From the sequence record PZ452608.1: 64,000 bases of DNA. One strand, written 5' to 3'. The DNA comes from a phage. A program made the position numbers and the translations under genes. This document shows positions 35,499-63,383 of the stretch, piece after piece. Position 1 is the stretch's first letter. The number at the start of each line of letters is the position of its first letter. Below the pieces are notes generated by a model. The model had not been told where the DNA came from, did no database searches, and worked only from the letters and a program-made list of their open reading frames with translations.

Positions 35499-35522
35499 AG
35501 GCTGCTTCGGCGGCCTTTTTTA
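35499..35522 (+). terminator. intrinsic terminator (UUCG tetraloop)
   Basis: GGCTGC-TTCG-GCGGCC then TTTTTT. Confidence 0.55.
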
Positions 35523-35582
35523 TTTGTATTTTGTGCAGAGTGCTGTATAATTGATGTCACGATAAACTAAACAGGAGAACCA

Positions 35583-36131
35583 ATGAAGAAATTGATTCTA
35601 GGTTTGTGCTTAATGTTTACAGCACACTTATCTTATGCAGTTGACTGCCCAGAACTATCAATTAGCCAAAAAGTGAACATGTTAAAAGCTTACCAGTATG
35701 GTGAGAATAACATGGGTAAAGGTTGGGGTATCACTCTAGCAGCTATAGCCTTACAAGAGTCAGAGTTAGGTCTGAAGGTAGAAAATAAAAAGACCCATGA
35801 CTATGGTATCTTCCAGAATCACTTGAAGACTGTTGTAAAGCGTAACAAAATTAGTCCTAATGTTGCTAAAAAGAAACTCTTAAAAGATTTTGACTATGCC
35901 GCAAAAGAAACACATAAAGAGCTTGAGTTTTGGACGAAGGTGCATGGTCACCCAAAGTCAAAGAAGACTTTACAAAAAGTTTTAGCATCATATAATGCTG
36001 GGTATTCGTACAGAATCCCTAAAGCTAAGAAATATTCTCAAGATGTCTATAACAACATGAAAGTTATTGCTCAATGTGAATTTGCAACAAACATTTCTAA
36101 GGTAAACCATGAAAAAATTAAAAAAGTCTGA
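35583..36131 (+). CDS. secreted lytic transglycosylase-like protein
   Basis: Signal peptide MKKLILGLCLMFTAHLSYA; ALQESELG...YGIFQ resembles SLT-domain catalytic region. Confidence 0.4.
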   Translation: MKKLILGLCLMFTAHLSYAVDCPELSISQKVNMLKAYQYGENNMGKGWGITLAAIALQESELGLKVENKKTHDYGIFQNHLKTVVKRNKISPNVAKKKLLKDFDYAAKETHKELEFWTKVHGHPKSKKTLQKVLASYNAGYSYRIPKAKKYSQDVYNNMKVIAQCEFATNISKVNHEKIKKV

Positions 36132-38652: not shown

Positions 38653-38853
38653 ATGGCTGACTTCTGCAAAGACTGTTCTATAGAAATGTTTGGACGTGAT
38701 ACAGGTGACTTAAAAGGTCTTATCACTGAAGATGACTTTAAAGCTGGCTATGCAATGCCAGTAATCTGTGAAGGTTGTGGATGTATCTGGGTAGACCATG
38801 AGGGGCAACGTGTAAAACCTTCAGAAGATAAAGAATCTTGGGAGAGATGTTAA
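38653..38853 (+). CDS. small zinc-ribbon protein
   Basis: CKDC...CEGCGC cysteine pairs. Confidence 0.3.
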   Translation: MADFCKDCSIEMFGRDTGDLKGLITEDDFKAGYAMPVICEGCGCIWVDHEGQRVKPSEDKESWERC

Positions 38854-39639
38854 ATGGGTATTGTAAAAATAATCAATGGTGATATCTTTGCCGCATTTGA
38901 TAAAGGTAAGTTTGACATCATCGGTCACGGTTGCAACTGTATGAATTTAATGGGTGCAGGTATCGCTGACAAGATTTCTAAACTTTACCCAAAAGCATAT
39001 GAGACCGATACAGAAGTTTATCTATATGCAGGTGGTATAGGACACAAACCCTGTGAAAATTTACTGGGTAATTTCTCTGTAGCACGTTTAAAACAAGGTC
39101 GTATAGCTAACCTTTACACTCAGCTTAAGACTGGTAAAGATGCCCGATACAGTGCTTTAGAGTCATCTTTGAAACAGCTTAACAGATACTGTGAAGTTAA
39201 TCAGTTGAGGAAAGTTGGTTTACCTATGATTGGTGCAGGTATCGGTGGGTTGGACCCTCAAGCCGTCACAGTTATCATCAATCAGGTGATGAAGAGTGTA
39301 GATGTTTATCTATATGTCTATGAAGGAGAGATGTACCACAAGTTACGCTCAGGTTGGAATAACTACTGTGAACCAGAATACTTTGCAGGTGTAGTAACGT
39401 TCAAAGATGATACAGTTACCCTCTTCAGACGAAGAAAAGGTAAGATACATCAAAGTAACCCTCCGGTTGAGAAGATGTCTCTAAGTAACGCTCTAGTTAC
39501 CCACCTGTCGAAGAGCAATCACAGGATAGCCGTAACATTTGGCAGTGATGCAGATACATATATTTATGCAAGAACTGATGAGGATATCGAGACGGTCTTC
39601 TCTTCACCGGAAGTTACCTTCTTAGACGCAAAGAACTAA
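38854..39639 (+). CDS. macro-domain protein (ADP-ribose binding/processing) with C-terminal extension
   Basis: IINGDIFAAFDKGKFDIIGHGCNCMNLMGAGIA and VGLPMIGAGIGGLDP resemble macro-domain motifs. Confidence 0.5.
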   Translation: MGIVKIINGDIFAAFDKGKFDIIGHGCNCMNLMGAGIADKISKLYPKAYETDTEVYLYAGGIGHKPCENLLGNFSVARLKQGRIANLYTQLKTGKDARYSALESSLKQLNRYCEVNQLRKVGLPMIGAGIGGLDPQAVTVIINQVMKSVDVYLYVYEGEMYHKLRSGWNNYCEPEYFAGVVTFKDDTVTLFRRRKGKIHQSNPPVEKMSLSNALVTHLSKSNHRIAVTFGSDADTYIYARTDEDIETVFSSPEVTFLDAKN

Positions 39640-39670
39640 GAAACTCTGTATAATATTCACAATAGACTAA

Positions 39671-39715
39671 GCCTTCCTTATCTGGTAAATTTTTCAGGTA
39701 AGGAGGGCTTTTTCA
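39671..39715 (+). terminator. intrinsic terminator (long imperfect stem)
   Basis: GCCTTCCTTA...TAAGGAGGGC then TTTTT. Confidence 0.4.
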
Positions 39716-39900
39716 TTTCAGGATTGTGCAGGTAGAGTTCTGTAGAGAAATCTGTAGAGAGAATTTTGAACTCCAAAGAGAAAATTCATTTTCAAACTGT
39801 GCAGGTAATCTCCAAAGAGCTTTTTCATTTTCAAAAAGTGCACCCCGCTCAGGTCGGGCAAGAAAAATCATTTTAGAATTGTGCAGGTAGGTTTTTATGG
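39716..39900. repeat. repeat-rich non-coding region
   Basis: TGTGCAGGTA x3 at about 80-bp spacing, TCTGTAGAGA x2, CTCCAAAGAG x2, CCCTCTCCCC x2. Confidence 0.5.
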
Positions 39901-40065
39901 AGAGCCATACCAACCCCTCTCCCCCTATTACCCCCTCTCTCCCCAAAAGTCAAGAGAAAAATTTGTAGCGGATTGAAAAATAATTCTTGATTTGTGTTCT
40001 GTTTTGTGGTAGTCGTGTGCGCACGTTTCATTACAGTTTTTCCAAAAATATTTTTAAAATTTTTC

Positions 40066-40157
40066 TTGACTCTTTGAACGGGGTTATCTAGTATTTGCAT
40101 CAACGGGGAGGGAATGACCTTCCCCACTAAATAAAGTCCTAAACTGGAGATTCAAAA
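40066..40157 (+). promoter_or_regulatory. type A leader module: sigma70-like promoter, 5' stem-loop, conserved leader and SD
   Basis: TTGACT-17-TAGTAT, then CAACGGGGAGGGAATGACCTTCCCC hairpin, then ACTAAATAAAGTCCTAAACTGGAGATTCAAAAATG; repeated before ORFs at 41718, 42582, 43809, 44706, 45304, 45636. Confidence 0.5.
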
Positions 40158-40538
40158 ATGGCATACCGTGCACCTAAATTCATCAACAAAGACAACTTTC
40201 GCAACGCACTGGAGAAGTCACTTGATGAGAATTTTAAAGGTAACGTTATTGTTGTTCACTCGTTCAATTTCAAGTATGATATTAACGGGAATAAAATCAA
40301 CCATTACACGGCGACAATGCTAGATGGTACTCTTTCAAGTGAAAAAGCCATTTTACATGCACTTGCTGGACGTGGTAAAAACCTGATAAGATGCGATAAG
40401 AGACGTTATCAGGGTGGCGCATATGGTTACGATGATGCTGTTTATCATCTTGAAAATATGGGCTATCAAGTAGAAAAAGCTGGAGTGTCTCAAATAATCG
40501 GTAGTGATGGTTATGTAACAATCTTCAAAATTAACTGA
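40158..40538 (+). CDS. hypothetical protein (array gene 1)
   Basis: 126 aa; type A leader with GGAG SD. Confidence 0.5.
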   Translation: MAYRAPKFINKDNFRNALEKSLDENFKGNVIVVHSFNFKYDINGNKINHYTATMLDGTLSSEKAILHALAGRGKNLIRCDKRRYQGGAYGYDDAVYHLENMGYQVEKAGVSQIIGSDGYVTIFKIN

Positions 40539-40626
40539 TAAAGTACTTTACAAGGGGCTTATAGTTCGATAAAGTAAGCCCCAGATAAAGAGCTTTACCA
40601 CTAAATCCTAAATTGGAGATTCAAAA
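40539..40626 (+). promoter_or_regulatory. type B leader module: GC hairpin plus conserved leader and SD
   Basis: TAAAGTACTTTACA-AGGGGCTTA..TAAGCCCC-AGATAAAGAGCTTTACCACTAAATCCTAAATTGGAGATTCAAAAATG; repeated before ORFs at 41006, 42076, 42873, 44143. Confidence 0.45.
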
Positions 40627-40917
40627 ATGGCTACTATCAAAAACGTTGTAATTCCTGTAAAAACTCGTGATGACGCTCGCATCATGGCGAAAAAGTTAGG
40701 CGGGAAAGTGGTTGACAACGGAAAACAATCTGCTGTAAGATGGGGTGTGAAGGCTGATAAACAGTTGAAGTTAAAAAATTCACCAATAAATCTTTTTACA
40801 TGTGTAAACACTATCGGAAAGACAAATGTATACACGAAAAAGGCATATATTAGACGCGTAGCCTTAACATCTCCAATTCGTACAATGAGAGGTTATGCAA
40901 AGCTGAAAATTAGCTGA
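40627..40917 (+). CDS. hypothetical protein (array gene 2)
   Basis: 96 aa basic protein; type B leader. Confidence 0.5.
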   Translation: MATIKNVVIPVKTRDDARIMAKKLGGKVVDNGKQSAVRWGVKADKQLKLKNSPINLFTCVNTIGKTNVYTKKAYIRRVALTSPIRTMRGYAKLKIS

Positions 40918-41005
40918 TAAAGTACTTTACAAGGGGCTTAAAAGTTGGTATCTTAAGCCCCAGATAAAGAGCTTTACCACTCAATCCTAAACTGGAGATT
41001 CAAAA

Positions 41006-41302
41006 ATGAAATTATCAAATAAAGTTCGTGAAAATCTAAGCAAATTACTCAACAAAATTGATTTCATTGAAACATCAAGAAATAGCCATGATGTTATGGA
41101 ATGGTTACACGGCAAAATAAAAGGTCGTCGTGTAGTGATTTGCTTATGGAATAGTTGCAGGGAGTATAAAAAACCTGTATTGCAAGTTAATATCTATGAT
41201 GATACTCTTAAAAGTCCTGTCAAATCTAAAAGTGATTTATTAGAATCTTATGAGATAACTGTAAGTGGCAAAGTATCACGTAAAGAGGAAGCACCATGTT
41301 AA
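41006..41302 (+). CDS. hypothetical protein (array gene 3)
   Basis: 98 aa; type B leader. Confidence 0.5.
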   Translation: MKLSNKVRENLSKLLNKIDFIETSRNSHDVMEWLHGKIKGRRVVICLWNSCREYKKPVLQVNIYDDTLKSPVKSKSDLLESYEITVSGKVSRKEEAPC

Positions 41303-41628
41303 TGACTGGTATCACTGCAATCATTGCCATTTTCGCGCTCTATAAGGCATATAAAGCCTATAATCTAGCAAATAAGGCAATCACACAACAGGTTAGCAAT
41401 AGCCTTGTAATGAGCTTTCTAGAGCGGTTGAGCGATGAACAATTAAAGCGGTTAGAAATGAGCTTCAGATTCAGGGCGAGAACTTATCAAATCAGCGACA
41501 TTTTCAAAGATGATTTTCAATTAGTCGATGATTATAATTCTCTGATAAATGCTTTAAATATTAGTGACTTAAAAGACTATCATACTGTAATTGTTCAAGA
41601 GTTGAGCAAACGAAAACAAAACTGTTGA
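41296..41628 (+). CDS. hypothetical protein (array gene 4)
   Basis: 110 aa; overlaps upstream gene, no leader module. Confidence 0.35.
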   Translation: MLMTGITAIIAIFALYKAYKAYNLANKAITQQVSNSLVMSFLERLSDEQLKRLEMSFRFRARTYQISDIFKDDFQLVDDYNSLINALNISDLKDYHTVIVQELSKRKQNC

Positions 41629-41717
41629 CACTGATTTTTAGATAGATTAAATTACACATCAACGGGGAGGCAATAAACACCCCACTAAATAAAGCCCTTA
41701 AACTAGGAGATTCTAAA

Positions 41718-41990
41718 ATGTATACTACTAACAACGGTCGCACTTTAAATGTCACTCTACGTCACTATGTAGACGGTGTGATGCACTTTGAGGATTTACA
41801 GGCTGAGCAACATATCTTAGATTGGCAAGTCGCAGGACTCCAAAAAACTGCTACCGGATACGGCAAAAAGATTCCAACTAGCTGGAAAGTATACTATGAA
41901 GGACGTTTGCGCAGAATTTATCAGGATGTATGTAGCAATAGCACATCAAGTTACATCATAGTAAAAGGTAAAAAACTGCATTTAGTATAA
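41718..41990 (+). CDS. hypothetical protein (array gene 5)
   Basis: 90 aa; type A leader (TTGACA-17-TAAATT). Confidence 0.5.
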   Translation: MYTTNNGRTLNVTLRHYVDGVMHFEDLQAEQHILDWQVAGLQKTATGYGKKIPTSWKVYYEGRLRRIYQDVCSNSTSSYIIVKGKKLHLV

Positions 41991-42075
41991 AGTACTTTAC
42001 AGGGGGCTTATTAGTCTGTACAGTAAGCCCCAGATAAAGAGCTTTACCACTCAATCCTAAATTGGAGATTCTAAA

Positions 42076-42480
42076 ATGGCTATTAATAATCGTGAGTTGT
42101 CAATCTTAAAAGCACGTTTAACCGTTAATCGAATCAATGTTATTACATCATCAGCACCGGATGAAACATTGCACAACATTATCGGAAAGATTCAAAGCGT
42201 TATCTTAGACGTTGAAAACGTAAAAAACTCATTGGCTGACGTTGCAGCAGGTATCACGCTAGACGGTGCACAATATGAAATGGTCGACATGTTAGGCAAA
42301 TCTAAGGTAATGAATAAAGAGTTAGACTTGAAAATGTTTAGATTTGCCGTGAAAGTGTGGCTATCTGTTGAGTATGATGCTAATTTTGCAATCGCTGATT
42401 TCTTTGCCACTTGGTTACAACGTAATTTGGCAAATCATGACTTTCGTGACATCTGCGACGCAATTTATGCAGAACTCTAA
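42076..42480 (+). CDS. hypothetical protein (array gene 6)
   Basis: 134 aa; type B leader. Confidence 0.5.
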   Translation: MAINNRELSILKARLTVNRINVITSSAPDETLHNIIGKIQSVILDVENVKNSLADVAAGITLDGAQYEMVDMLGKSKVMNKELDLKMFRFAVKVWLSVEYDANFAIADFFATWLQRNLANHDFRDICDAIYAEL

Positions 42481-42581
42481 AAATTTTATTGACACTGATT
42501 TTTAGATAGATTAAATTACACATCAACGGGGAGGGAATGACCTTCCCCACTAAGTAAAGTCCTTAAACTAGGAGATTCAAA

Positions 42582-42779
42582 ATGGCTATTATCAACGGTT
42601 TAACCATTGAAACCACGCACATCAAAGACATTAAAGTTGGTGATGTAGTTCTTTCCCACGGCGTAGAAAAAACAGTCACTGCAAAGGATATCAAAGATGA
42701 TTCTTTCATGGGTAGAACTCTCTTCGGTGATTCTTATTGCTTAGGTTATCTTGCAGTTTTAAAAGTTGTCAAAAATTAA
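42582..42779 (+). CDS. hypothetical protein (array gene 7)
   Basis: 65 aa; type A leader. Confidence 0.45.
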   Translation: MAIINGLTIETTHIKDIKVGDVVLSHGVEKTVTAKDIKDDSFMGRTLFGDSYCLGYLAVLKVVKN

Positions 42780-42872
42780 CTGATAAAGTACTTTACAAGG
42801 GGCTTATAGTTCGATAAAGTAAGCCCCAGATAAAGAGCTTTACCACTAAATCCTTAAACTAGGAGATTCAAA

Positions 42873-43415
42873 ATGAAATGCTTTCACGGTACTACTCAAG
42901 AAAACTTTATCAACCTGATTAATAACGGTGATAAACCATCAGGTGTATGGAATTGTTCGGATATGGACGGCAATTTTTACGTGTACCCAGAAAATAAACT
43001 CTATGGTGATGATGAGGAAGAGATAGCATCGGAAGGTATCCAGCAAGCTCTAGGAAATGCCACTATCACGGCAGCTTTTCAGATGAAAACTCAAAATATT
43101 GTTATCTTAGAACTTGACATTCCAGAGGATGAGCTAAATGATGATTATTCTTGTGATAACATGTCAAATATAGCAAGCTTTACAGAGTACTTTGATGTAA
43201 ATTGGATTAAAAAGGTCTATACAACAGAGTTCAACGCTATGTATTCACCTTTTTGTCTCCCTTCACTGGATAACCCAAATTTAAATTATCTTGATGAAAC
43301 ATTGGAGCTACTTGCTAAAAGTATCCAACAATCCGACAGTATTCAGGTTTTTTGTGACATCATGGATACACTGACAGAAAACATTGTAGAGAGTGATTTA
43401 AAGGTCTTTTTCTAA
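42873..43415 (+). CDS. hypothetical protein (array gene 8)
   Basis: 180 aa acidic protein; type B leader. Confidence 0.5.
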   Translation: MKCFHGTTQENFINLINNGDKPSGVWNCSDMDGNFYVYPENKLYGDDEEEIASEGIQQALGNATITAAFQMKTQNIVILELDIPEDELNDDYSCDNMSNIASFTEYFDVNWIKKVYTTEFNAMYSPFCLPSLDNPNLNYLDETLELLAKSIQQSDSIQVFCDIMDTLTENIVESDLKVFF

Positions 43416-43481
43416 AAACCTATACATTCACCTTATAAACACTGATTAACCCCTTACAGGGGCTTTTAGAGGGCTTAAATC

Positions 43482-43715
43482 ATGCTTACAACCATTTATC
43501 TCATCCTTTCCATTTGTAACGGCCATTCATGTGACTTTAAAGGGCTTGAAGAGTTTACAGGAAGTAAAGAAAATGCTATTCAAGTTTGCCAGATAGCAAG
43601 ACAAGACTACCCCGCCAGTGATGATATACAATGTTACTTTAAGACAGAAGATGACGAAGGAATCTATTTCGACAGTGTCGATGGTCAATATGAAATTATC
43701 ATTGAAAAAGACTAG
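43482..43715 (+). CDS. hypothetical protein with N-terminal hydrophobic segment (array gene 9)
   Basis: 77 aa; preceded by a different hairpin (CCCCTTACAGGGG). Confidence 0.4.
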   Translation: MLTTIYLILSICNGHSCDFKGLEEFTGSKENAIQVCQIARQDYPASDDIQCYFKTEDDEGIYFDSVDGQYEIIIEKD

Positions 43716-43808
43716 ACAAGCCTGATAAAAGTCTGTAAATTATCAATCAACGGGGAGGGAATGACCTTCCCCACTAAGTAAAGTCCTTAAACTAGGAGAT
43801 TCCAAAAA

Positions 43809-44057
43809 ATGTATACTAAAACTCAACTAAAAAACATGGTTAGCAATGGCTTAATGGATGAAGTCTATAAAGAGTGTAGACGCTACGGGGAAATTAAGGA
43901 TAAGACTAGTTATGAGTATACCCACACAATAGACTTTAAAACCAATGAGAAGAGGACTGACCTTGTTACTGTAGTAGTGATTGAGTATAAACGAATTATT
44001 TGGACCTTTGAGCTAGTAAAAGGTGAGTGCACAGAGATAGAATATAAAGACGCTTAA
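43809..44057 (+). CDS. hypothetical protein (array gene 10)
   Basis: 82 aa; type A leader. Confidence 0.5.
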   Translation: MYTKTQLKNMVSNGLMDEVYKECRRYGEIKDKTSYEYTHTIDFKTNEKRTDLVTVVVIEYKRIIWTFELVKGECTEIEYKDA

Positions 44058-44142
44058 AGTACTTTACATGGGGCTTATTAGTCTGTATAGTAAGCCCCAG
44101 ATAAAGAGCTTTACCACTCAATCCTAAACTGGAGATTCTAAA

Positions 44143-44484
44143 ATGGCTTATGTAACCGTAATTACCGATAAAGCTGGCTCATCTTGGTCAACTCAAGTAA
44201 GTGATAAGATGTCACCTATGCAGTGCCTAAAATACTTTGAACAGTGGAACAAAGGCGAGGGTGTAAGCCCCTTTCAAGTGATGCAAATCATCCATACAGA
44301 TAACGAAGGGAATAAAACGACCTTGAACAGTGAATACTACGCAAGCCGTTTTGAAACGAGAAGTAAAACAATGAAGCTTTTACGTGAATCCGGTTATGCA
44401 CATATTGCCGCTTTAATCTGGGATGACCTGCTAAAAAGTCAGCGTATCAGCTATGTAAAGCCTGAAAAAATCTTCATAAGTTAA
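44143..44484 (+). CDS. hypothetical protein (array gene 11)
   Basis: 113 aa; type B leader. Confidence 0.5.
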   Translation: MAYVTVITDKAGSSWSTQVSDKMSPMQCLKYFEQWNKGEGVSPFQVMQIIHTDNEGNKTTLNSEYYASRFETRSKTMKLLRESGYAHIAALIWDDLLKSQRISYVKPEKIFIS

Positions 44485-44705
44485 TCAATAACTTACAAAA
44501 AACTTTTAAAAAAGTGTTGACAATACCCATTGACATTGGTAACTTTGTTCGAGGGGGTTATCTAAAAGGGATTCACTTAATAGATTCTTTATAGATAAAC
44601 TTAAAAAATTGCTTGCAAAGGCAAATCAAAACAAGTATAGTACTAATCAACGGGGAGGGAATGACCTTCCCCACTAAGTAAAGTCCTTAAACTAGGAGAT
44701 TCAAA

Positions 44706-45236
44706 ATGAACAAGTTTCAAGCTATCAACTACATTCGCTCATCTAACGTTATGACTAAACCCGTTAAAGATACCTTCGAATTTCGTTGCAACGGTGTACA
44801 CTTTGCAACTATCACTAAATCAGAAAACGGGGCTTATTATATACATCGTCGTAATGTTTCTACTGTTGTAGTATCTCACTTTATGCAAGCTGTAGCAGAA
44901 CTGTTACCGCTATTCTTAGGTATTTACTTAGATGAGTGTAAAAACGTTCGCAACCACGTTAAAGACCTTTTAAATGGTTATAAAATGGCTTATGAACGTT
45001 CTATCAAGAATCTTAACAAGTTCTATAAAGCCCCTGAAAACACCGTATCAATAGCTTATGATGTAAGTGGTGAAATGGTCAACCTCTCCAATGTAGAACA
45101 AATTGGCCTTTATGATTTACGTCCTAGCGGTTATTCTAAGACTCTCGGTGAAGGCTTATCCTTCAATATCAAGAACTTAGAAAAAACTTTAAAAGATATT
45201 GAAAAAGATATTGACGAGACAATCAAAAGTCTGTAA
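44706..45236 (+). CDS. hypothetical protein (array gene 12)
   Basis: 176 aa; type A leader with TTGCAA-17-TATAGT. Confidence 0.5.
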   Translation: MNKFQAINYIRSSNVMTKPVKDTFEFRCNGVHFATITKSENGAYYIHRRNVSTVVVSHFMQAVAELLPLFLGIYLDECKNVRNHVKDLLNGYKMAYERSIKNLNKFYKAPENTVSIAYDVSGEMVNLSNVEQIGLYDLRPSGYSKTLGEGLSFNIKNLEKTLKDIEKDIDETIKSL

Positions 45237-45303
45237 ATTGTCAATCAACGGGGAGGGATTAACCTTCCCACTAAGTAAAGTCCTTAAACTAGGAGATTCA
45301 AAA

Positions 45304-45567
45304 ATGGAACACGTAGAATTAACCACACTATTGCAGATTGCAACTGACAAAGAAGACGTAGCGTTGTTTCACCGTATCGAAAGTGATTTGTTCAATGGTG
45401 AAATCATTAAAGAATCTTACGAAGTTGTCGGATTCAAAGATGGTAAAGCATTTGGCTTTTTTGACCTCGACAAAAGCAAAGCGGTTACAATGTACGATGT
45501 TCTATCTTGTGAAATTCTGACAAAATACAACGAAAAAAGGCTTGCAACCTACGCCAATATGCAGTAA
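45304..45567 (+). CDS. hypothetical protein (array gene 13)
   Basis: Start at ATG (MEHVELT) right after type A leader rather than the upstream in-frame ATG of the track ORF. Confidence 0.45.
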   Translation: MEHVELTTLLQIATDKEDVALFHRIESDLFNGEIIKESYEVVGFKDGKAFGFFDLDKSKAVTMYDVLSCEILTKYNEKRLATYANMQ

Positions 45568-45635
45568 ATTACTAAACAACGGGGAGGGAATGACCTTCCC
45601 CACTAAATAAAGTCCTAAACTGGAGATTCTAAATT

Positions 45636-57985: not shown

Positions 57986-58062
57986 CTCTGTTTAGCTCAG
58001 CTTGGTAGAGCGTTCCGTTTGGGGCGGTAAGGCCGGAGGTTCAAGTCCTCCAACAGAGACCA
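57986..58062 (+). tRNA. tRNA-Pro (anticodon TGG)
   Basis: Manual fold: 7-bp acceptor CTCTGTT/AACAGAG, GCTC/GAGC D-stem, loop TTTGGGG, T-arm GGAGG-TTCAAGT-CCTCC, CCA encoded. Confidence 0.75.
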
Positions 58063-58069
58063 AATTAAT

Positions 58070-58147
58070 GTTCCAGTAGACAAAATGGTAAAGTCACCAC
58101 TCTTTCAAAGTGGATATCTGAGGGTTCAAATCCCTTCTGGAACGCCA
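58070..58147 (+). tRNA. tRNA-Glu (anticodon TTC)
   Basis: Acceptor GTTCCAG/CTGGAAC, anticodon stem CCACT/AGTGG, loop CTTTCAA, CCA encoded. Confidence 0.7.
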
Positions 58148-58238
58148 GTTTTGACAGAAGACCAATTACAGCAAACTTAATCTACTCATCTGAAAGTTAA
58201 TCGGACAAAGAAGATATTTGGTCTGGTCATTAAGAATT

Positions 58239-58314
58239 GCGGGTATAGAGAAAGGGCGTCTCACATGTCTCATTAGCATGGTATCGGCAGGTTCGACTCC
58301 TGCACCCGCCTCCA
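58239..58314 (+). tRNA. tRNA with anticodon CAT (Met or Ile-lysidine type), atypical
   Basis: Acceptor GCGGGTA with one mismatch, D-stem GAGA/TCTC, anticodon stem CATGT/GCATG, loop CTCATTA (T at position 37), T-arm GCAGG-TTCGACT-CCTGC. Confidence 0.5.
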
Positions 58315-58398
58315 AATTTACAGAAGACCGTTTACAGCAATATTTATTAAATTTTTAGCGGAAAAAATTGAAAGATACGGTCTGGTAATACTAAACAT

Positions 58399-58475
58399 GG
58401 TTAGGAAGCACATAAGGTATGTGCGGTCGCCTGTTAAGCGAATGGCACAGGGTTCGAATCCCTGACTAACCGCCA
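58399..58475 (+). tRNA. tRNA-Asn (anticodon GTT)
   Basis: Acceptor GGTTAGG/ACTAACC (one mismatch), D-stem GCAC/GTGC, loop CTGTTAA, T-arm CAGGG-TTCGAAT-CCCTG. Confidence 0.65.
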
Positions 58476-58484
58476 AATTTAAAT

Positions 58485-58572
58485 GTGTCGTTATCCCGTA
58501 GATGGTAGCGGTGGGGACTGTAAATCCCTTGTCATTGAGACTCGGTAGGTTCGACTCCTACACGGCACACCA
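58485..58572 (+). tRNA. tRNA-Tyr (anticodon GTA), long variable arm
   Basis: 88 nt; acceptor GTGTCGT/ACGGCAC, loop CTGTAAA, T-arm GTAGG-TTCGACT-CCTAC. Confidence 0.7.
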
Positions 58573-58577
58573 ATAAA

Positions 58578-58655
58578 GGTTATGTAGTTTAATCTGGTTA
58601 AAATACTCCCCTGTCACGGGAGATGATGAGGGTTCGAATCCCTTCGTAACCGCCA
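58578..58655 (+). tRNA. tRNA-Asp (anticodon GTC)
   Basis: Acceptor GGTTATG/CGTAACC, anticodon stem CTCCC/GGGAG, loop CTGTCAC. Confidence 0.75.
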
Positions 58656-58838
58656 ATTTTGATAGGGCTATTTAGCCCCTCCCTTAAAGGGTTCTTACGA
58701 GTATTCTTTAAAGGAGCAGAAGACCAAATTCAGCAAGTTACTTAAAATTTCAAGCCAATTTAATTTTGAAAAATTTAAAACTTGGTCTGGCTCAACAAAT
58801 TTACAGAAGACCGTTTACAGCAAAACTTAAACAATCTA

Positions 58839-58912
58839 TTTCTCCGGTAAAGAAAAGGCGAAGGTTCGATTCCTTCACTCGGCAGATGTCGAGTTGGTGT
58901 AATGGTAGCACT
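58839..58912 (+). other. circularly permuted or rearranged tRNA-like gene (Thr-type anticodon GGT)
   Basis: 58839-58884 encodes anticodon arm (TTTCT-CCGGTAA-AGAAA), T-arm (GAAGG-TTCGATT-CCTTC), acceptor 3' strand ACTCGGC and discriminator; after a 3-nt linker, 58888-58912 encodes complementary acceptor 5' strand GTCGAGT plus D-arm (GTGT-AATGGTA-GCAC). Confidence 0.4.
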
Positions 58913-58943
58913 TAAGATGATAAACAACGGTCTGGTAATTACC

Positions 58944-59073
58944 TTTGTAGATAAGTTATTAAGCTTACTTGTGAGTATGCGACCACAAAGGGTGAATGGG
59001 TAAATTCTAGATTTAAACCCAAAAAGGCACATCGCTACAGACCTTAAGCAAGTCTGGGTAGCTTATCTACAAA
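58944..59073 (+). other. structured element: 12-bp perfect inverted repeat enclosing about 106 nt
   Basis: TTTGTAGATAAG (58944-58955) and CTTATCTACAAA (59062-59073); internal hairpin GGGTAAAT..ATTTAAACCC. Confidence 0.4.
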
Positions 59074-59084
59074 GATAATTTAAT

Positions 59085-59160
59085 GGAAGTGTAGCAGAAT
59101 GGTGATGCGGCAGACTTTTAATCTGACAGGCGATGGGTTCGAATCCCTCCACTTCTACCA
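59085..59160 (+). tRNA. tRNA-Lys (anticodon TTT)
   Basis: Acceptor GGAAGTG/CACTTCT (G-U at 1:72), loop CTTTTAA, T-loop TTCGAAT with weak T-stem, CCA encoded. Confidence 0.65.
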
Positions 59161-59164
59161 ATAT

Positions 59165-59241
59165 GGTTCAGTCGCAGATAAGGTAATGCAAGGGTCTCAT
59201 AAGCCCTATGAATGTGGGTTCGATTCCCATCTGAACCTCCA
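59165..59241 (+). tRNA. tRNA-Met (anticodon CAT)
   Basis: Acceptor GGTTCAG/CTGAACC, anticodon stem AGGGT/GCCCT, loop CTCATAA, T-arm TGGGTTCGATTCCCA. Confidence 0.7.
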
Positions 59242-59242
59242 A

Positions 59243-59318
59243 GCTGGTATAGTTAAGAAGGTTATAACACTCCCCTGATAAGGGAACATCGGTGGTTCGA
59301 TTCCACCTACCAGTACCA
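59243..59318 (+). tRNA. tRNA-Ile (anticodon GAT)
   Basis: Acceptor GCTGGTA/TACCAGT, D-stem GTTA/TAAC, loop CTGATAA, T-arm GGTGG-TTCGATT-CCACC. Confidence 0.75.
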
Positions 59319-59333
59319 ATTTCAATAAAGTTG

Positions 59334-59362
59334 TTGACATTGAGATGTGACTACTTTATAGT
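59334..59362 (+). promoter_or_regulatory. sigma70-like promoter inside tRNA array
   Basis: TTGACA-17-TATAGT. Confidence 0.5.
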
Positions 59363-59566
59363 AACCTTAGTTTTCGTTGCGTAGCGTCTATTTTGCAAAT
59401 TTAAAATAAATGCAAACGACAATGTTTTTCTGGCAGTAGCTTGATAGGCTAAACACCAGTGAGGTCTTCCAATCCCTCATCAAAGAATTTGGCGTACTAG
59501 CCCACGGTATGATTAATAAGGTGGGCATCTTTAAGGGCTTTCTAAGAGAGTCTTTAAAGATAATTA

Positions 59567-59648
59567 CGGGGCGTATCTCAGCGGTCTTCTAAACCGCCGT
59601 TAACCGAGTAAGTGGAGTATGCGGGTTCGAGTCCTGCCGCCTCGACCA
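59567..59648 (+). tRNA. atypical tRNA-like gene (possible anticodon TCT, Arg-type); no canonical D-arm
   Basis: Acceptor CGGGGCG/CGCCTCG, T-arm GCGGG-TTCGAGT-CCTGC, CCA; perfect stem-loop GCGGT-CTTCTAA-ACCGC only 7 nt after acceptor, plus 23-nt extra segment. Confidence 0.4.
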
Positions 59649-59797
59649 ATTTAGTTAGCAGATTACTTAGACGACCTAAACGGGTCTTCCTGTAGGGAGG
59701 TGGTCTGTATCTCATGTTTTCCAGAACATGTAAATAATCTGAGAAGGGGCTTTACAGTGTTGAGATAATACGGTAAGCTTTGAATTATAGTTTTAAT

Positions 59798-59868
59798 AGG
59801 GGTGAGCTATGGCAGCAATAGAGTCTCCAAAATTCTTGATTAGAGTTCGAATCTCTACACCCCTGCCA
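59798..59868 (+). tRNA. short tRNA, probable tRNA-Trp (anticodon CCA), reduced D-arm
   Basis: 71 nt; acceptor AGGGGTG/CACCCCT, anticodon arm AGAGT-CTCCAAA-ATTCT, T-arm TAGAG-TTCGAAT-CTCTA. Confidence 0.45.
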
Positions 59869-59882
59869 GAACAGGTGCTTGT

Positions 59883-60287
59883 ATGAAACTTTGTAGAAAA
59901 TGTTCTCAAGAAAAGCCTTTAAGCTGCTTTCATAAAAGAGGTAATGGCTATCAGTCTGCTTGTAAAGATTGTAAAGCTAAGTACTCAGCAAAGAGATACA
60001 AAGAAGACCCTACTTATAAAGCAAAAAGAAAAGTTAGGGCAAAATATGACAAAAAGAGGAACAGAGAGTTCCTTAGTAGATATAAAAAGTTTTGCAAATG
60101 CAGAATATGTGGCGAATCTGAGCCAGTAGCTTTGGATTTTCATCACTTAGACCCTAAAGAGAAAGATTTTGCTCCAAGCAATCTTAAAACTTACTCTAGA
60201 GGCACTATTAAGCGTGAAGTCCGTAAGTGTGTTGTGCTTTGTTCAAACTGTCATAGGAAAGTTCATGCAGGACTGTTAAGTATTTAA
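59883..60287 (+). CDS. HNH homing endonuclease
   Basis: 134 aa with CRKC, CKDC, CRIC cysteine pairs, HH motif (LDFHHLDP) and CSNCHRKVH; embedded in tRNA array. Confidence 0.6.
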   Translation: MKLCRKCSQEKPLSCFHKRGNGYQSACKDCKAKYSAKRYKEDPTYKAKRKVRAKYDKKRNREFLSRYKKFCKCRICGESEPVALDFHHLDPKEKDFAPSNLKTYSRGTIKREVRKCVVLCSNCHRKVHAGLLSI

Positions 60288-60300
60288 CAGTCTTATTAGG

Positions 60301-60388
60301 GGTAGGTAGCGGCTAATGGCAGCCAAACAGTCTTGAAAACTGTTGCCACTGTAGAGATACGGTGAGGGTTCGACTCCTTTACTTACCG
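60301..60388 (+). tRNA. tRNA-Ser (anticodon TGA), long variable arm; CCA not encoded
   Basis: Acceptor GGTAGGT/ACTTACC, anticodon arm ACAGT-CTTGAAA-ACTGT, 20-nt variable arm. Confidence 0.7.
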
Positions 60389-60544
60389 CCTAATAAGATT
60401 TACTCCGTCCATGCTTGTTCGCATTGTCGGTTTATCCCTCGTGTATTGTCGTACACTGTCAAAGCACCTAGTAGGTGTCACGGAGAAGAGATAATATCAA
60501 GCTCTCCAAAGGTTCTAGTCACCGGATTAAACAAGACTATGCAA

Positions 60545-60565
60545 AGACCTATTTAGGTCTTTTTA
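60545..60565 (+). terminator. intrinsic terminator inside tRNA array
   Basis: AGACC-TATTT-AGGTCT then TTTTT. Confidence 0.5.
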
Positions 60566-60644
60566 GAGGGCTTCTAAGGTTATTAGTCGCTTGTTGTGGA
60601 ACCTTGTTGCTCAGGTTCTTAGAAGTTCTCTAAAAAGATTTAAT

Positions 60645-60721
60645 GCACCTATAGCCCAACTGGTAGAGGCAGCAGACTTAGAATCTGCTCAGTGTGAGTT
60701 CGAATCTCTCTAGGTGTACCA
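60645..60721 (+). tRNA. tRNA with Leu-type anticodon TAG but short (type I) variable loop
   Basis: Acceptor GCACCTA/TAGGTGT, anticodon arm GCAGA-CTTAGAA-TCTGC, 5-nt variable loop, T-arm GTGAG-TTCGAAT-CTCTC. Confidence 0.55.
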
Positions 60722-60728
60722 AATTAAT

Positions 60729-60804
60729 GCAGGTGTAGCAAAATGGTTATGCGGCTGACTCTTAATCAGTAAGACGATGGGTTCAATTCCCTCCACCTGT
60801 ACCA
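60729..60804 (+). tRNA. tRNA-Lys (anticodon CTT)
   Basis: Acceptor GCAGGTG/CACCTGT, anticodon arm GCTGA-CTCTTAA-TCAGT, T-loop TTCAATT. Confidence 0.6.
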
Positions 60805-60810
60805 AACAAT

Positions 60811-60886
60811 GGGGTCATAGTTTATATGGTTAAAATTCGAGTTTTGCAAACTTGGGAACTGAGTTCAATTCTCAGTGACTCCACCA
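60811..60886 (+). tRNA. tRNA-Ala (anticodon TGC)
   Basis: Acceptor GGGGTCA/TGACTCC, anticodon arm CGAGT-TTTGCAA-ACTTG, T-arm CTGAG-TTCAATT-CTCAG. Confidence 0.7.
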
Positions 60887-60892
60887 ATTAGT

Positions 60893-60967
60893 GCATCCAT
60901 AGTTTAAACGGGAAAATTACAGTCTTCCAAACTGAGGTTGAGGGTTCGATTCCCTCTGGATGCTCCA
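60893..60967 (+). tRNA. tRNA-Gly (anticodon TCC)
   Basis: Acceptor GCATCCA/TGGATGC, loop CTTCCAA, T-arm GAGGG-TTCGATT-CCCTC. Confidence 0.7.
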
Positions 60968-60974
60968 AATTAAT

Positions 60975-61050
60975 GCTCCTATCGTATAATTGGTTATTAC
61001 GGTTGCCTTGTAAGCAACTTATCAGGGTTCGAGTCCTTGTGGGAGCACCA
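60975..61050 (+). tRNA. tRNA-Thr (anticodon TGT)
   Basis: Acceptor GCTCCTA/TGGGAGC, anticodon arm GTTGC-CTTGTAA-GCAAC, T-arm CAGGG-TTCGAGT-CCTTG. Confidence 0.75.
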
Positions 61051-61146
61051 ATTCGGAGGTCAAGTGAAAGACCGCTTTGAGTCAACTGAAGACCGTAACA
61101 AATTCCACGAAGTTGAGTTAGCGGCACAACTTCAGACCTCTTTCAT

Positions 61147-61221
61147 ACTCGCTTAGTTTATATGGTAAAACATCACCCTTACAAGATGAAGAAAAAGGTT
61201 CAAGTCCTTTAGTGAGTACCA
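61147..61221 (+). tRNA. tRNA-Val (anticodon TAC)
   Basis: Acceptor ACTCGCT/AGTGAGT, loop CTTACAA, T-arm AAAGG-TTCAAGT-CCTTT. Confidence 0.65.
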
Positions 61222-61222
61222 T

Positions 61223-61300
61223 GTTCCAGTATCCCAATTGGCAGAGGATGCAAGCTCAAACCTTGTATTAGTGACGGTTCGAATCCGTCTTGGAACACCA
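61223..61300 (+). tRNA. tRNA with Leu-type anticodon CAA but short (type I) variable loop
   Basis: Acceptor GTTCCAG/TTGGAAC, anticodon arm (AT)GCAAG-CTCAAAC-CTTGT(AT), T-arm GACGG-TTCGAAT-CCGTC. Confidence 0.55.
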
Positions 61301-61305
61301 ATTTT

Positions 61306-61381
61306 GCAGGATTAGTTCAAATGGAAAGAGCAACAGTCTACGAAGCTGTTAATAGGGGTTCGAATCCCTTATCCTGCGCCA
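61306..61381 (+). tRNA. tRNA-Arg (anticodon ACG)
   Basis: Acceptor GCAGGAT/ATCCTGC, anticodon arm ACAGT-CTACGAA-GCTGT, T-arm AGGGG-TTCGAAT-CCCTT. Confidence 0.7.
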
Positions 61382-61398
61382 GATAAAAAGGTGATACT

Positions 61399-62195: not shown

Positions 62196-62203
62196 AGATT
62201 TAA

Positions 62204-62279: not shown

Positions 62280-62281
62280 AT

Positions 62282-62360: not shown

Positions 62361-62365
62361 AATTT

Positions 62366-62441: not shown

Positions 62442-62472
62442 CTTCTAAGGATTCTTACGAGAGTCCTTAAAT

Positions 62473-62548: not shown

Positions 62549-62553
62549 ATTTA

Positions 62554-63381: not shown

Positions 63382-63383
63382 AT

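What the first reader, a model, noticed from the sequence alone, without database searches (positions are those of the whole stretch)
39716..40065. Repeat-rich non-coding leader upstream of the small-gene array
Seen in sequence: about 350 nt without credible ORFs holds TGTGCAGGTA three times at about 80-nt spacing (near 39725, 39798, 39880), TCTGTAGAGA twice, CTCCAAAGAG twice, TTTTCATTT units and a C-rich CCCCTCTCCCC pair. It sits between the terminator of the macro-domain gene and the first type A promoter, and may be an operator array or a small non-coding RNA locus controlling the array.
Basis: seen in the sequence. Interest (0 to 1): 0.45.

Follow-up and report, generated by a model that had tools for sequence, protein, structure and literature searches.

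The report
Conserved four-copy protein-binding repeat array
The repeats are real: they form a non-coding array of four same-direction DNA recognition sites that every examined lineage but one (L160) of Felix O1-like phages keeps just downstream of the same gene (one gene further in L161), most likely a landing pad for a still unidentified phage DNA-binding protein and not a small RNA.

Summary
The window is 100% identical to phage wV8 (Felixounavirus) over the 2 kb compared. It is an asymmetric, bipartite core (W5-TCATTTT-N6-GTGCAGGTA) present four times in one orientation (39713, 39786, 39825, 39868), unique in the ~88.5-kb genome apart from one promoter-embedded copy at ~35514.

The core is better conserved (93.5%) than codon position 2 of the neighbouring gene (83%). 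No ORF survives across genera, so wV8 "gene 13" is an artefact. There is no Rfam hit, no unusual fold, no covariation and no promoter of its own.

The same 3-4-copy array sits after the macro-domain gene in seven Ounavirinae lineages. All copies change together by lineage (GTGCAGG, GTGCATA, GTGCTCT). That is the signature of co-evolution with a phage-encoded binding protein.

Published barcode insertions into the Bas63 array cost no fitness.

Best reading: an iteron-like or operator-like DNA-binding array at the boundary of two early operons, probably regulatory. A replication origin is the main rival. The 3' third of the reported interval is separate: an allelic C-rich tract, a decayed promoter copy and the UP element of the first array promoter.

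The parts
39669..39710 (+). Intrinsic terminator of the macro-domain gene (17-pair stem, then a T-run). The T-run is also the W5 part of array copy 1.
   Evidence: Terminator scan; annotated as a terminator in EU877232.
39708..39734 (+). Array copy c1: CTTTTTCATTTCAGGATTGTGCAGGTA. It is also weakly promoter-like (TTTTCA-17-TAGAGT, 8/12; by my reading of the alignment 9/12 in relatives with TATATT, TATAGT or TATTAT).
   Evidence: 41.3 bits.
39739..39762 (+). Tandem 12-nt TCTGTAGAGA(AA) pair inside the long c1-c2 gap. A related TCTGTA(C/G)AGA element is kept in other lineages, including L161.
39781..39807 (+). Array copy c2: AAAATTCATTTTCAAACTGTGCAGGTA, preceded by CTCCAAAGAG.
   Evidence: 36.9 bits.
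39820..39846 (+). Array copy c3: CTTTTTCATTTTCAAAAAGTGCACCCC, preceded by CTCCAAAGAG. Its right half deviates at the last positions in several lineages.
   Evidence: (24.4 bits).
39863..39889 (+). Array copy c4: AAAAATCATTTTAGAATTGTGCAGGTA.
   Evidence: 38.0 bits.
39905..39946 (+). C-rich, G-poor tract (four C-runs, so a G4-type motif on the minus strand). It is one of two alternative alleles: many Felix O1-like genomes carry an unrelated sequence here, so it is not a fixed part of the element.
   Evidence: two alleles; 57% conservation; G+C 0.52 against 0.39 for the window.
39947..39995 (+). Conserved block AAAAGTCAAGAGAAAAATTTGTAGCGGATTGAAAAATAATTCTTGA (86-90% conserved). The AAAAGTCAAG-N-GAAAAAT part is kept even in Yersinia phage P778. 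It contains an inverted copy of the promoter's TTTTTCTTGACT segment.
   Evidence: (I3).
39988..40016 (+). Decayed promoter-like copy TTGATT-17-TAGTCG (no T at -7). Probably non-functional or factor-dependent.
   Evidence: Read from the sequence and alignment; not called by the promoter scan.
40043..40094 (+). A/T block AAAAATATTTTTAAAATTTTT, which resembles (consensus recalled from memory) the UP element of strong promoters, followed by the first promoter of the small-gene array, TTGACT-17-TAGTAT.
   Evidence: Promoter scan; invariant A/T block in alignment A1. The UP-element assignment is inference.
40101..40157 (+). 5'-leader cassette (hairpin GGGGAGGGAATGACCTTCCCC plus RBS) shared with five other genes of the array (wV8 'DR_6'). 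It is not part of the repeat array.
   Evidence: D3.
35514..35549 (+). Single core-like site just after the rIIB terminator, embedded in the -35/spacer of the gene-3 promoter: TTTTTTATTTG-TATTT-TGTGCAG-AGTGCTG-TATAAT. TGTGCAG is kept in 19 of 20 aligned genomes (L027 has TGTGTAG) while neighbouring spacer bases vary.
39726..39890 (+). Annotated wV8 'gene 13' (54 aa, GTG start). It is not a gene.

Best explanation
The core of the finding (39708-39889) is an array of four directly repeated, asymmetric, bipartite recognition sites on double-stranded DNA for a sequence-specific DNA-binding protein encoded by the phage. Each unit has an A/T-rich left half (W5-TCATTTT) and a G/C-containing right half (GTGCAGGTA) whose centres are about one helical turn apart. 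Units repeat every 39-45 bp, with a double-length first gap. The array lies in a large non-coding gap directly after the terminator of the gene 3-12 (macro-domain) early operon and about 180 bp upstream of the UP-element promoter that starts the small early-gene array. Shown here: the sites are real, non-coding, under purifying selection, unique in the genome, present across the subfamily, and co-evolving as a set. Inferred: the bound protein regulates early-region transcription. It would repress the gene-3 promoter through the single embedded site. At the array it would form a multi-protein complex at the operon boundary, acting as a roadblock or insulator against read-through and/or modulating the adjacent promoters. 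The binding protein was not identified. gp092 (Cro/C1-type HTH) is the only recognisable candidate, and it would normally be expected to bind palindromic sites.
For: (1) Four copies occur in one orientation and are unique in the ~88.5-kb pseudo-genome assembled from the window plus wV8 record sequence. (2) The 13 specified core positions are 93.5% conserved over 25 distinct genomes, against 83% and 73% at codon positions 2 and 3 of the flanking gene and 81% in the spacers. (3) Arrays of 3-4 copies in the same syntenic place, after the macro gene, were read in Felixounavirus, Suspvirus, Mooglevirus, Kolesnikvirus, Yersinia phage P778, Pectobacterium phage Arno162 and the uncultured contig L161. 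(4) Each lineage's right-half variant (GTGCAGG, GTGCATA, GTGCTCT) is in 3-4 of its 4 copies (4/4 in phiEa104 and P778), and Arno162 also changes the left half. Unit identity within a genome is 0.77-0.84, against 0.37-0.66 between distant lineages. (5) The element is neither coding nor a structured RNA, and no sigma-70-like promoter precedes the array. (6) A single core overlaps the -35/spacer of the gene-3 promoter; TGTGCAG is kept in 19 of 20 aligned genomes (L027 has TGTGTAG), even where the upstream gene is unrelated (L074). (7) Barcode insertions in Bas63 'gene 96', which spans c1-c4, score +0.24 to +0.98 like dispensable genes, consistent with an accessory regulatory element built from redundant sites. 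(8) No similar sequence exists in E. coli genomes, plasmids or 185,579 bacterial species genomes.
Against: No binding protein is identified. The macro protein's C-terminal domain has no DNA-binding-like structural match, and neighbouring genes have no DNA-binding domains. The cores lie about 180-350 bp from the nearest strong promoter, and none of the other promoter cassettes of the downstream array carries the core, so a simple operator role for 'the array' is not evident. The promoter-embedded single site was found only in Felixounavirus- and Mooglevirus-type genomes. It is absent within 3-6 kb in Kolesnikvirus, P778, Arno162 and L161, and in wV8 its matrix score (9.8) is within the shuffle range. 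Spacings (35-47 bp) are not in a constant helical phase. One distant relative (L160) has no array next to its macro gene.
Confidence: 0.45

Rival explanations
1. Iteron-type origin of replication. The four direct repeats would bind a phage initiator that opens DNA nearby, helped by transcription from the adjacent strong early promoter.
For: The architecture is iteron-like: asymmetric direct repeats in one orientation, a single cluster per genome, and lineage-specific co-variation as for Rep and iteron pairs. The array sits in the largest conserved non-coding gap of a gene-dense genome. An A/T-rich block and a strong promoter lie within 200 bp. No origin has been described for this subfamily in the searched literature.
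Against: The replisome is T7-like (Toprim plus DnaB_C primase-helicase, a DNA polymerase), and no initiator was found in the RefSeq annotation of the replication region or among the ten proteins I scanned against Pfam. In six of seven lineages the array is followed by a G+C-rich segment, not an A/T-rich unwinding element. The wV8 A/T block is about 150 bp away and is better explained as a UP element. The 35-47-bp period is long and variable compared with the ~20-22-bp periods I recall for classical iterons. GC skew shows no inflection here, although skew follows gene orientation and so is uninformative. Barcode insertions in the Bas63 array are neutral, and L160 lacks the array next to its macro gene.
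Confidence: 0.25
2. RNA-level repeat element. Read-through or unrecognised transcripts would carry four copies of an unstructured motif that titrates an RNA-binding protein, for example as a decoy for a type III toxin (pseudo-ToxI-like) or another host defence nuclease.
For: The 35-47-nt period and the 3-4 copies fall in the range of type III antitoxin arrays (ToxI is 36 nt per PMC3475682; the periods of other families are from memory), and a phage-borne mimic is known (PMC3475682). Variation by lineage and host genus would also fit co-evolution with an RNA-binding partner. The neighbouring genes look like early accessory or anti-defence genes (macro domain; NAD-salvage genes were counters in PhageMaP).
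Against: No sigma-70-like promoter lies upstream in any lineage, and in wV8 the array begins inside a terminator T-run. Units are only 60-84% alike, are separated by variable spacers and have a double first gap, unlike near-identical head-to-tail antitoxin repeats. There is no Rfam hit even at E<=10, no covariation and no bacterial or plasmid counterpart. Bas63 g96 scored as dispensable in the two defence-panel sheets I read and is not mentioned in the main text.
Confidence: 0.08
3. Cluster of tandem weak or factor-dependent promoters that fire into the downstream early-gene array.
For: Copy c1 reads TTTTCA-17-TAGAGT, which is 9/12 in several relatives by my reading of the alignment. The core-like site at ~35514 is part of a real-looking TATAAT promoter. 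Tandem early promoters are common in virulent phages (T7 A1-A3, from general knowledge).
Against: c2-c4 score 5/12 or less, and their -10-like hexamers are not conserved between genera. The promoter scan finds none in 39640-40060. Erwinia, Yersinia and Pectobacterium units have no -10 at the equivalent position. If this were a special promoter class, it should recur upstream of other genes, and it does not.
Confidence: 0.07
4. Functionless tandem duplication or remnant of decayed promoter cassettes.
For: The downstream region is full of duplicated promoter and leader cassettes, and a decayed promoter copy exists at 39988-40016.
Against: The cores are more conserved than coding positions. They are maintained in seven lineages whose macro proteins are only 34-40% identical. 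The cores are absent from the promoter cassettes.
Confidence: 0.02

Closest known systems
Iterons of plasmid and phage replication origins (lambda ori/O protein, P1 oriR/RepA, F/RepE, SPP1 oriL/G38P)
   Same: Direct repeats in one orientation, asymmetric sites, 3-5 copies, one cluster per replicon, and sequence that co-varies with the lineage as expected for a cognate binding protein.
   Different: The period is 35-47 bp with variable spacers, where I recall ~20-22 bp abutting repeats for classical iterons. No adjacent A/T-rich unwinding element is seen in most lineages, no initiator gene was found, the replisome is T7-like, and insertions are tolerated in Bas63.
Multi-site operator regions of phage transcription regulators (for example phi29 p4 sites between the A2c/A2b/A3 promoters, or lambda OR/OL)
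   Same: Several closely spaced sites for one regulator in an intergenic control region between early transcription units, with an additional site overlapping a promoter.
   Different: The sites are asymmetric direct repeats and not dyads. Most copies do not overlap any promoter, and the regulator is unknown.
F-plasmid sopC-type centromere (12 tandem 43-bp repeats bound by SopB)
   Same: Tandem units of about 40-45 bp, each holding one protein-recognition core, all in one orientation.
   Different: sopC cores are inverted repeats. The phage is virulent with no known partition need, and no ParA or ParB genes were recognised; gp092 gives only a weak generic HTH_ParB hit.
ToxI / pseudo-ToxI type III antitoxin RNA repeats (PMC3475682)
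   Same: Non-coding tandem repeats with a 35-47-nt period in a phage intergenic region, with copy-number variation (3-4).
   Different: Repeats are imperfect and separated by spacers, there is no promoter, no Rfam or bacterial counterpart was found, and no predicted structure.
Promoter-early stem-loop (PeSL)-like repeated promoter cassettes of T4-type and PAK_P1-like phages (PMC4309531)
   Same: This describes the downstream small-gene array of this window (repeated sigma-70 promoter plus hairpin plus RBS cassettes).
   Different: The four-copy core array has neither -35/-10 hexamers nor the hairpin, and shares no sequence with those cassettes.

Membership tests
Iteron-type replication origin | Cluster of directly repeated, same-orientation binding sites, unique in the replicon | tested here: met
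   Four copies on the + strand only; no other cluster in the ~88.5-kb pseudo-genome.
Iteron-type replication origin | Adjacent A/T-rich DNA-unwinding element | tested here: not met
   The 60 nt after the array are G+C-rich in six of seven lineages (0.52-0.72 against 0.38-0.44 for the locus). The wV8 A/T block lies about 150 bp away and abuts a -35 hexamer, as a UP element does.
Iteron-type replication origin | Cognate initiator protein encoded by the replicon, usually adjacent | tested here: inconclusive
   The flanking genes have no DNA-binding or Rep domains. The macro protein's C-terminal domain has no significant fold match. The primase-helicase is T7 gp4-like. Most phage genes are of unknown function.
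Iteron-type replication origin | Replication starts at the site, or the site is required for replication | not testable with these tools
   The only indirect evidence is that PhageMaP barcode insertions in the Bas63 array are neutral and that GC skew is uninformative.
Operator array of a transcription regulator | Sites overlap or adjoin promoters that they control | tested here: inconclusive
   One single site overlaps the gene-3 promoter. c1 overlaps a weak promoter-like sequence. c2-c4 overlap none, and the strong promoter is about 180 bp away.
Operator array of a transcription regulator | Sequence-specific regulator encoded by the phage | tested here: inconclusive
   gp092 is a Cro/C1-type HTH protein, but no link to the motif could be tested. 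Lineage co-variation implies a phage-encoded partner.
Type III antitoxin (ToxI-like) RNA array or phage pseudo-antitoxin | Near-identical head-to-tail repeats without spacers | tested here: not met
   Units are 0.62 identical in wV8 (0.61-0.84 across lineages), with variable spacers and a double first gap.
Type III antitoxin (ToxI-like) RNA array or phage pseudo-antitoxin | Transcribed from its own promoter | tested here: not met
   No sigma-70-like promoter lies upstream in four lineages, and the array starts in a terminator T-run in wV8. Consensus scan only; there are no expression data.
Type III antitoxin (ToxI-like) RNA array or phage pseudo-antitoxin | Similarity to a bacterial antitoxin array next to a toxin gene | tested here: not met
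   The genome contigs pattern scan gave only two unrelated low-complexity hits. There was no match in plasmids or E. coli genomes and no Rfam hit at E<=10.
CRISPR mini-array or solitary repeat unit (RNA anti-CRISPR) | Repeat resembling a host CRISPR repeat with a conserved hairpin | tested here: not met
   The small CCCG...CGGG hairpin between c3 and c4 is replaced by ATAAAAA or AGAAAAA in many relatives. The 12-18-nt 'spacers' are too short, and there is no Rfam CRISPR-DR hit.
Genome terminus, direct terminal repeat or pac site | Located at the physical ends of virion DNA | tested here: not met
   The mapped ends of the relative UAB_Phi87 (608-bp DTR) lie next to the wV8 gp055 homologue, about 22 kb away (PMC4837284).
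Described non-coding RNA family (Rfam 15) | Covariance-model match at or near the gathering score | tested here: not met
   Only tRNAs pass in the window. In 39600-40200 the best hits are E>=0.44 and centre on the terminator hairpin.
Repeated early promoter cassette (PeSL-like) | -35/-10 hexamers at 16-18-bp spacing plus a leader hairpin, repeated before genes | tested here: not met
   The cassettes of the downstream genes share no sequence with the cores, and the scan finds no promoter in 39640-40060.

The most novel reading that the evidence does not exclude
The array is the missing cis-acting site of an undescribed phage system. One reading is the first defined replication origin of the Ounavirinae, which would imply an unknown initiator working with a T7-like replisome. 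The more radical reading is an expressed repeat RNA that decoys a host defence nuclease and diversifies with host genus (GTGCAGG in Escherichia/Salmonella phages, GTGCATA in Erwinia, GTGCTCT in Yersinia/Pectobacterium). The decoy reading is the most novel one that my evidence does not exclude, because I have no expression data.
Probability: 0.08. Interest if true: 0.8.

Novelty: new variant of a known kind. Interest (0 to 1): 0.5.

Why it matters
Felix O1-like phages are used for Salmonella typing, biocontrol and therapy, yet their early regulation and replication initiation are unknown. The Felix O1 genome paper states that temporal control of transcription is not understood (PMC3185647). This array is the most conserved non-coding feature found in the early region. 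It is present in almost all examined lineages of the subfamily and is routinely mis-annotated as small ORFs (wV8 gene 13, Bas63 g96/g97, Mordin gp014, Sf13 gp091, probably also P778 ORF122 and UAB_Phi87 ORFs 48-50). Because the sites co-vary by lineage, the array gives a direct handle for finding its partner protein by DNA pull-down or one-hybrid screening. That would allow testing whether it is a regulatory switch or the origin. It also marks a place where engineered insertions are tolerated, as in Bas63.

Tried and rejected
- **Genome terminus or pac site:** rejected. The mapped DTR of UAB_Phi87 is about 22 kb away.
- **Protein-coding:** rejected. ORFs are frame-shifted or stopped in relatives and match no PHROG family.
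- **Known RNA family or structured RNA:** rejected.
- **Decayed promoter cassettes:** rejected for the array. This applies only to 39988-40016.
- **CRISPR-like repeat or anti-CRISPR RNA:** the c3-c4 hairpin is not conserved.
- **C-rich tract as an essential G4, R-loop or rut element:** it is one of two alleles and is absent from many Felix O1-like genomes.
- **Host-site mimic:** no similarity in E. coli genomes, plasmids or bacterial species genomes. By-eye comparison with IHF, Fis, DnaA, CRP, OmpR, sigma-54, sigma-E and boxA consensus sequences recalled from memory gave no convincing match. This was not a formal test.
- **Host factor as partner:** made unlikely by lineage co-variation among phages of closely related hosts.
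- **Macro protein C-terminal domain as the binder:** the AlphaFold model (pLDDT 78) has no significant PDB match, best E = 0.25, weakly PH-like. A homologue search with the C-terminal part alone found nothing.
- **GC-skew inflection:** none. Skew tracks gene orientation.
- **Co-evolution test with a promoter-embedded single site in other lineages:** no such site within reach.
- **Relaxed metagenome pattern scan:** mostly chance repeats.
- **ToxI sequence:** it could not be retrieved from the held paper text, which lacks the figures.
Full report
**Identity and context**

The window is 100% identical to Escherichia phage wV8 (Felixounavirus, Ounavirinae) over the 2 kb compared. Window coordinate equals wV8 coordinate plus 32000 in this region. 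The window is not byte-identical to the wV8 record elsewhere.

The reported interval lies in a 518-nt gap with these limits:
- Upstream is the macro-domain 'phosphatase' gene 12 (38854-39639, Pfam Macro).
- Downstream is gene 14 (40158-40538), the first gene of a run of small early genes that each have their own promoter and leader cassette.
- The terminator of gene 12 is at 39669-39710, and the first array promoter (TTGACT-17-TAGTAT) is at 40066-40094.

**Checking the observation**

TGTGCAGGTA (three times), TCTGTAGAGA (twice) and CTCCAAAGAG (twice) occur nowhere else in 64 kb.
- CCCCTCTCCCC is exact only once.
The true repeat is an asymmetric core of about 27 nt, W5-TCATTTT-N2-A-N3-GTGCA(GGTA), with four copies on the + strand at 39713, 39786, 39825 and 39868 (spacing 73, 39, 43).
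- The four copies score 24-41 bits against a maximum of 10.6 in shuffles.
- In a pseudo-genome of about 88.5 kb, built from the window plus the rest of wV8, this is the only cluster.

**What it is not**

- **Not coding.** wV8 'gene 13' (39726-39890) is broken by a 2-nt indel in most Felixounaviruses and by stop codons in other genera. The minus-strand ORFs annotated in other records are not conserved either, and there is no PHROG match.
- **Not a described or structured RNA.** Only tRNAs pass Rfam thresholds. The region gives nothing better than E = 0.44, and those hits sit on the terminator hairpin. Folding energies equal those of shuffles on both strands (z = 0.04 and 0.17). RNAalifold on 22-24 distinct relatives gives covariation terms near zero.
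- **Not the genome terminus.** The experimentally mapped 608-bp terminal repeat of the relative UAB_Phi87 lies next to the gp055 homologue, about 22 kb away.
- **Not a decayed copy of the downstream promoter cassettes,** which share no sequence with the core.
- **Not similar to anything bacterial.** There is no match in E. coli genomes, plasmids or 185,579 bacterial species genomes.

**Conservation**

Over 25 distinct related genomes, the 13 specified core positions are 93.5% conserved. This compares with:
- 81% for the spacers between cores
- 83% at codon position 2 of the adjacent macro gene
- 73% at codon position 3 of that gene

The gap after the macro gene and the four-copy array are syntenic in Felixounavirus, Suspvirus, Mooglevirus and Kolesnikvirus. 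Si3-like genomes have three copies.

Pattern scans of IMG/VR gave 28 contigs, all 51-94 kb. All genuine arrays show the Ounavirinae spacing signature.

**The decisive comparison**

Homologues of the macro protein down to 33% identity led to more distant phages.

| Lineage | Repeat unit | Spacing |
|---|---|---|
| Uncultured contig L161 (macro protein 34% identical, GC-richer) | GGACTAACGAG-CTTTTTCATTCTGAAACTGTGCAGG, 4 copies, in an 800-nt gap one gene after the macro gene | 91/35/45 |
| Yersinia phage P778 | TCGCACTC-NN-AAAYTCATTTY-AAAAAC-GTGCTCT, 4 copies | 67/47/47 |
| Pectobacterium phage Arno162 | GTCACATTGCAAAACTCGTTGGAAAAAAGTGCTCT, 4 copies | 89/47/47 |
| Erwinia phages (Kolesnikvirus) | GTGCATA in all 4 copies | 37/37/39 |

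- The architecture is constant: four copies, one orientation, and in six of the seven lineages a longer first gap (Kolesnikvirus is evenly spaced at 37/37/39).
- The recognition sequence changes by lineage, in 3-4 of the 4 copies at once (4/4 in phiEa104 and P778).
- Units are more alike within L161, P778 and Arno162 (0.77-0.84) than between lineages (0.37-0.66).
- This concerted change is expected for sites that co-evolve with a lineage-specific trans-acting partner encoded by the phage.
- It argues against a host factor, because RNA polymerase, IHF, Fis and similar proteins are nearly invariant among these enterobacterial hosts (general knowledge).
- One distant relative, L160, has no array next to its macro gene.

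**A second site**

One more core-like site exists in wV8, at 35514-35549, directly after the rIIB terminator. There the sequence T6-ATTTG-N5-TGTGCAG-N7 precedes a perfect TATAAT, so the site overlaps the -35/spacer of the promoter of the gene 3-12 operon.

In an alignment of 20 genomes:
- TGTGCAG in that spacer is kept in 19 of 20 (L027 has TGTGTAG), while the neighbouring spacer bases vary.
- The terminator stem shows compensatory changes.
- In L074 the upstream gene is unrelated.

This looks like an operator. It means the operon that ends at the array begins with a single copy of the same motif.

Caveats:
- In wV8 the matrix score of this site (9.8) is within the shuffle range. It is 22.5 in the L074 metagenome contig, which has a Mooglevirus-like array spacing.
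- No such site was found within 3-6 kb in Kolesnikvirus, P778, Arno162 or L161.

**Published functional data**

In Bas63 (MZ501086), the array is annotated as minus-strand 'gene 96' (c1-c4). The following segment is 'gene 97'.

PhageMaP inserts a short barcode at Cas9 cut sites. Results:
- g96 insertions score +0.24 to +0.98 in two lab hosts and two defence-panel sheets, like dispensable genes. Essential genes score about -1 to -3.
- g97 has no data.
- g96 is not mentioned in the main text.

Individual insertions in the array are therefore tolerated. This weakens a strictly essential role, such as a sole origin that needs intact geometry. Because the four sites are redundant, it does not exclude function.

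**Origin or regulator**

For an origin:
- iteron-like layout
- uniqueness in the genome
- co-variation by lineage
- a nearby strong promoter

Against an origin:
- The replisome is T7-like (Toprim plus DnaB_C primase-helicase, a DNA polymerase), and no initiator was found in the RefSeq annotation of the replication region or among the ten proteins I scanned against Pfam.
- The segment after the array is G+C-rich in six of seven lineages, not an A/T-rich unwinding element.
- The wV8 A/T block abuts a -35 hexamer and resembles, as I recall it, the UP-element consensus (inference).
- GC skew merely follows gene orientation.
- The Bas63 insertions are neutral.

For a regulator:
- the position at the boundary of two early operons
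- the promoter-embedded copy
- dispensability under laboratory conditions
- the presence of a Cro/C1-type HTH protein, gp092

Against a regulator:
- the distance to the nearest strong promoter
- the absence of the core from the other early promoter cassettes

I tested one specific idea, that the adjacent macro protein's uncharacterised C-terminal domain is the binder. It folds confidently (pLDDT 78, pTM 0.71) into a small, mostly beta domain with no significant PDB match. This gives no support to the idea.

**Anatomy of the rest of the reported interval**

- **39905-39946:** a C-rich, G-poor tract that is one of two alleles. Many Felix O1-like genomes, including Bas63, carry an unrelated sequence here.
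- **39947-39995:** a strongly conserved block (AAAAGTCAAGAGAAAAAT...TTCTTGA), partly kept even in Yersinia phage P778.
- **39988-40016:** a decayed promoter copy (TTGATT-17-TAGTCG).
- **40043-40065:** the UP-like A/T block of the promoter at 40066-40094.

These are neighbours of the array and not part of the repeat family.

**Verdict**

The finding is real and is more than chance. It is a subfamily-wide, non-coding array of four protein-recognition sites on DNA that co-evolve as a set.

| Reading | Estimated likelihood |
|---|---|
| Regulatory binding platform for a phage-encoded protein at an early-operon boundary | about 0.45 |
| Iteron-type origin | about 0.25 |
| RNA decoy | about 0.08 |
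| Promoter cluster | about 0.07 |
| Functionless duplication or decayed cassette | about 0.02 |

The searches I ran in the held literature found no description of it. Genome records usually cover it with spurious small ORFs.

Noticed in passing
window 39726-39890; Bas63 MZ501086 64142-64457; L003 1042-1230; L005 960-1238; L162 3772-4026: The array region is annotated as small hypothetical ORFs on either strand in different records (wV8 gene 13, Bas63 g96 and g97, Mordin gp014, Sf13 gp091, P778 ORF122, and UAB_Phi87 ORFs 48-50 per PMC4837284). The wV8 gene 13 frame and the wV8 77-aa minus-strand frame, the two I tested, are not conserved across genera; the other records' ORFs cover the same repeat region, so all look like ORF-calling artefacts.
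   Followed up: yes
window 39890-39946 versus L158 12317-12385: There are two unrelated alleles of the ~55-nt segment after copy c4. One is C-rich (four C-runs, so a G-quadruplex-type motif on the minus strand) and occurs in wV8, SUSP2, Mooglevirus and Si3-like genomes. The other is GGTGGGGATGTCGCCATTTCTCACAAGGCTACC-type and occurs in Felix O1-like genomes and Bas63. This is a mosaic boundary right at the end of the array.
   Followed up: partly
window 40527-45635: The downstream small genes are each preceded by one of two repeated cassette types. One is TTTACA-17-TAAAGT with a GGGGCTTA...TAAGCCCC hairpin. The other is TTGACA-type with the CAACGGGGAGGGAATGACCTTCCCC leader hairpin plus an RBS. 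They resemble the PeSL or repeated early-promoter cassettes of T4-type and PAK_P1-like phages.
   Followed up: partly
window 38653-38853: Gene 11 (66 aa) has a CxxC...CxxCxC pattern suggesting a small zinc-ribbon protein. It overlaps the start of the macro gene and has no Pfam or PDB match (PHROG 2210, unknown function).
   Followed up: partly
window 39310-39636 (macro protein residues 153-261): The C-terminal ~95 residues of the macro-domain protein fold confidently (pLDDT 78) into a small, mostly beta domain with no significant match among solved structures. This part diverges much faster between lineages than the macro domain does.
   Followed up: partly
window 57986-63556: A cluster of 26 tRNA genes is found by ARAGORN (24 pass Rfam), all on the + strand.
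   Followed up: no
window 1-64000 versus EU877232: The window is not byte-identical to the wV8 record. wV8 4000-12000 is not an exact substring of the window, and the join across the record ends is offset by 2 nt. The source is therefore a near-identical, differently opened genome (O157 typing phages 8 and 11 and SP22 are also 99.9-100% identical over the 2 kb compared).
   Followed up: partly
one search hit list (GU169904.1 and 'Campylobacter' records): A 147-kb record named Staphylococcus phage SA1 and two Campylobacter-named records contain about 92% identical Felix O1-like sequence. They are probably chimeric or contaminated deposits.
   Followed up: no
L021 about 4430-4621: In this IMG/VR contig the array breaks off after copy c3 and continues into unrelated G+C-rich sequence. 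It is probably an assembly chimera.
   Followed up: no
L161 5180-5440: Upstream of its four-copy array, the distant phage L161 has further repeat families in the same 800-nt gap: GCTACGAAGCTGGGGTACG three times and CCAGAAACGC several times.
   Followed up: no
window 35583-35640: Gene 3 begins with a lipoprotein-type signal peptide (MKKLILGLCLMFTA...). Its coding sequence gives a chance partial match to the core motif in L033.
   Followed up: yes
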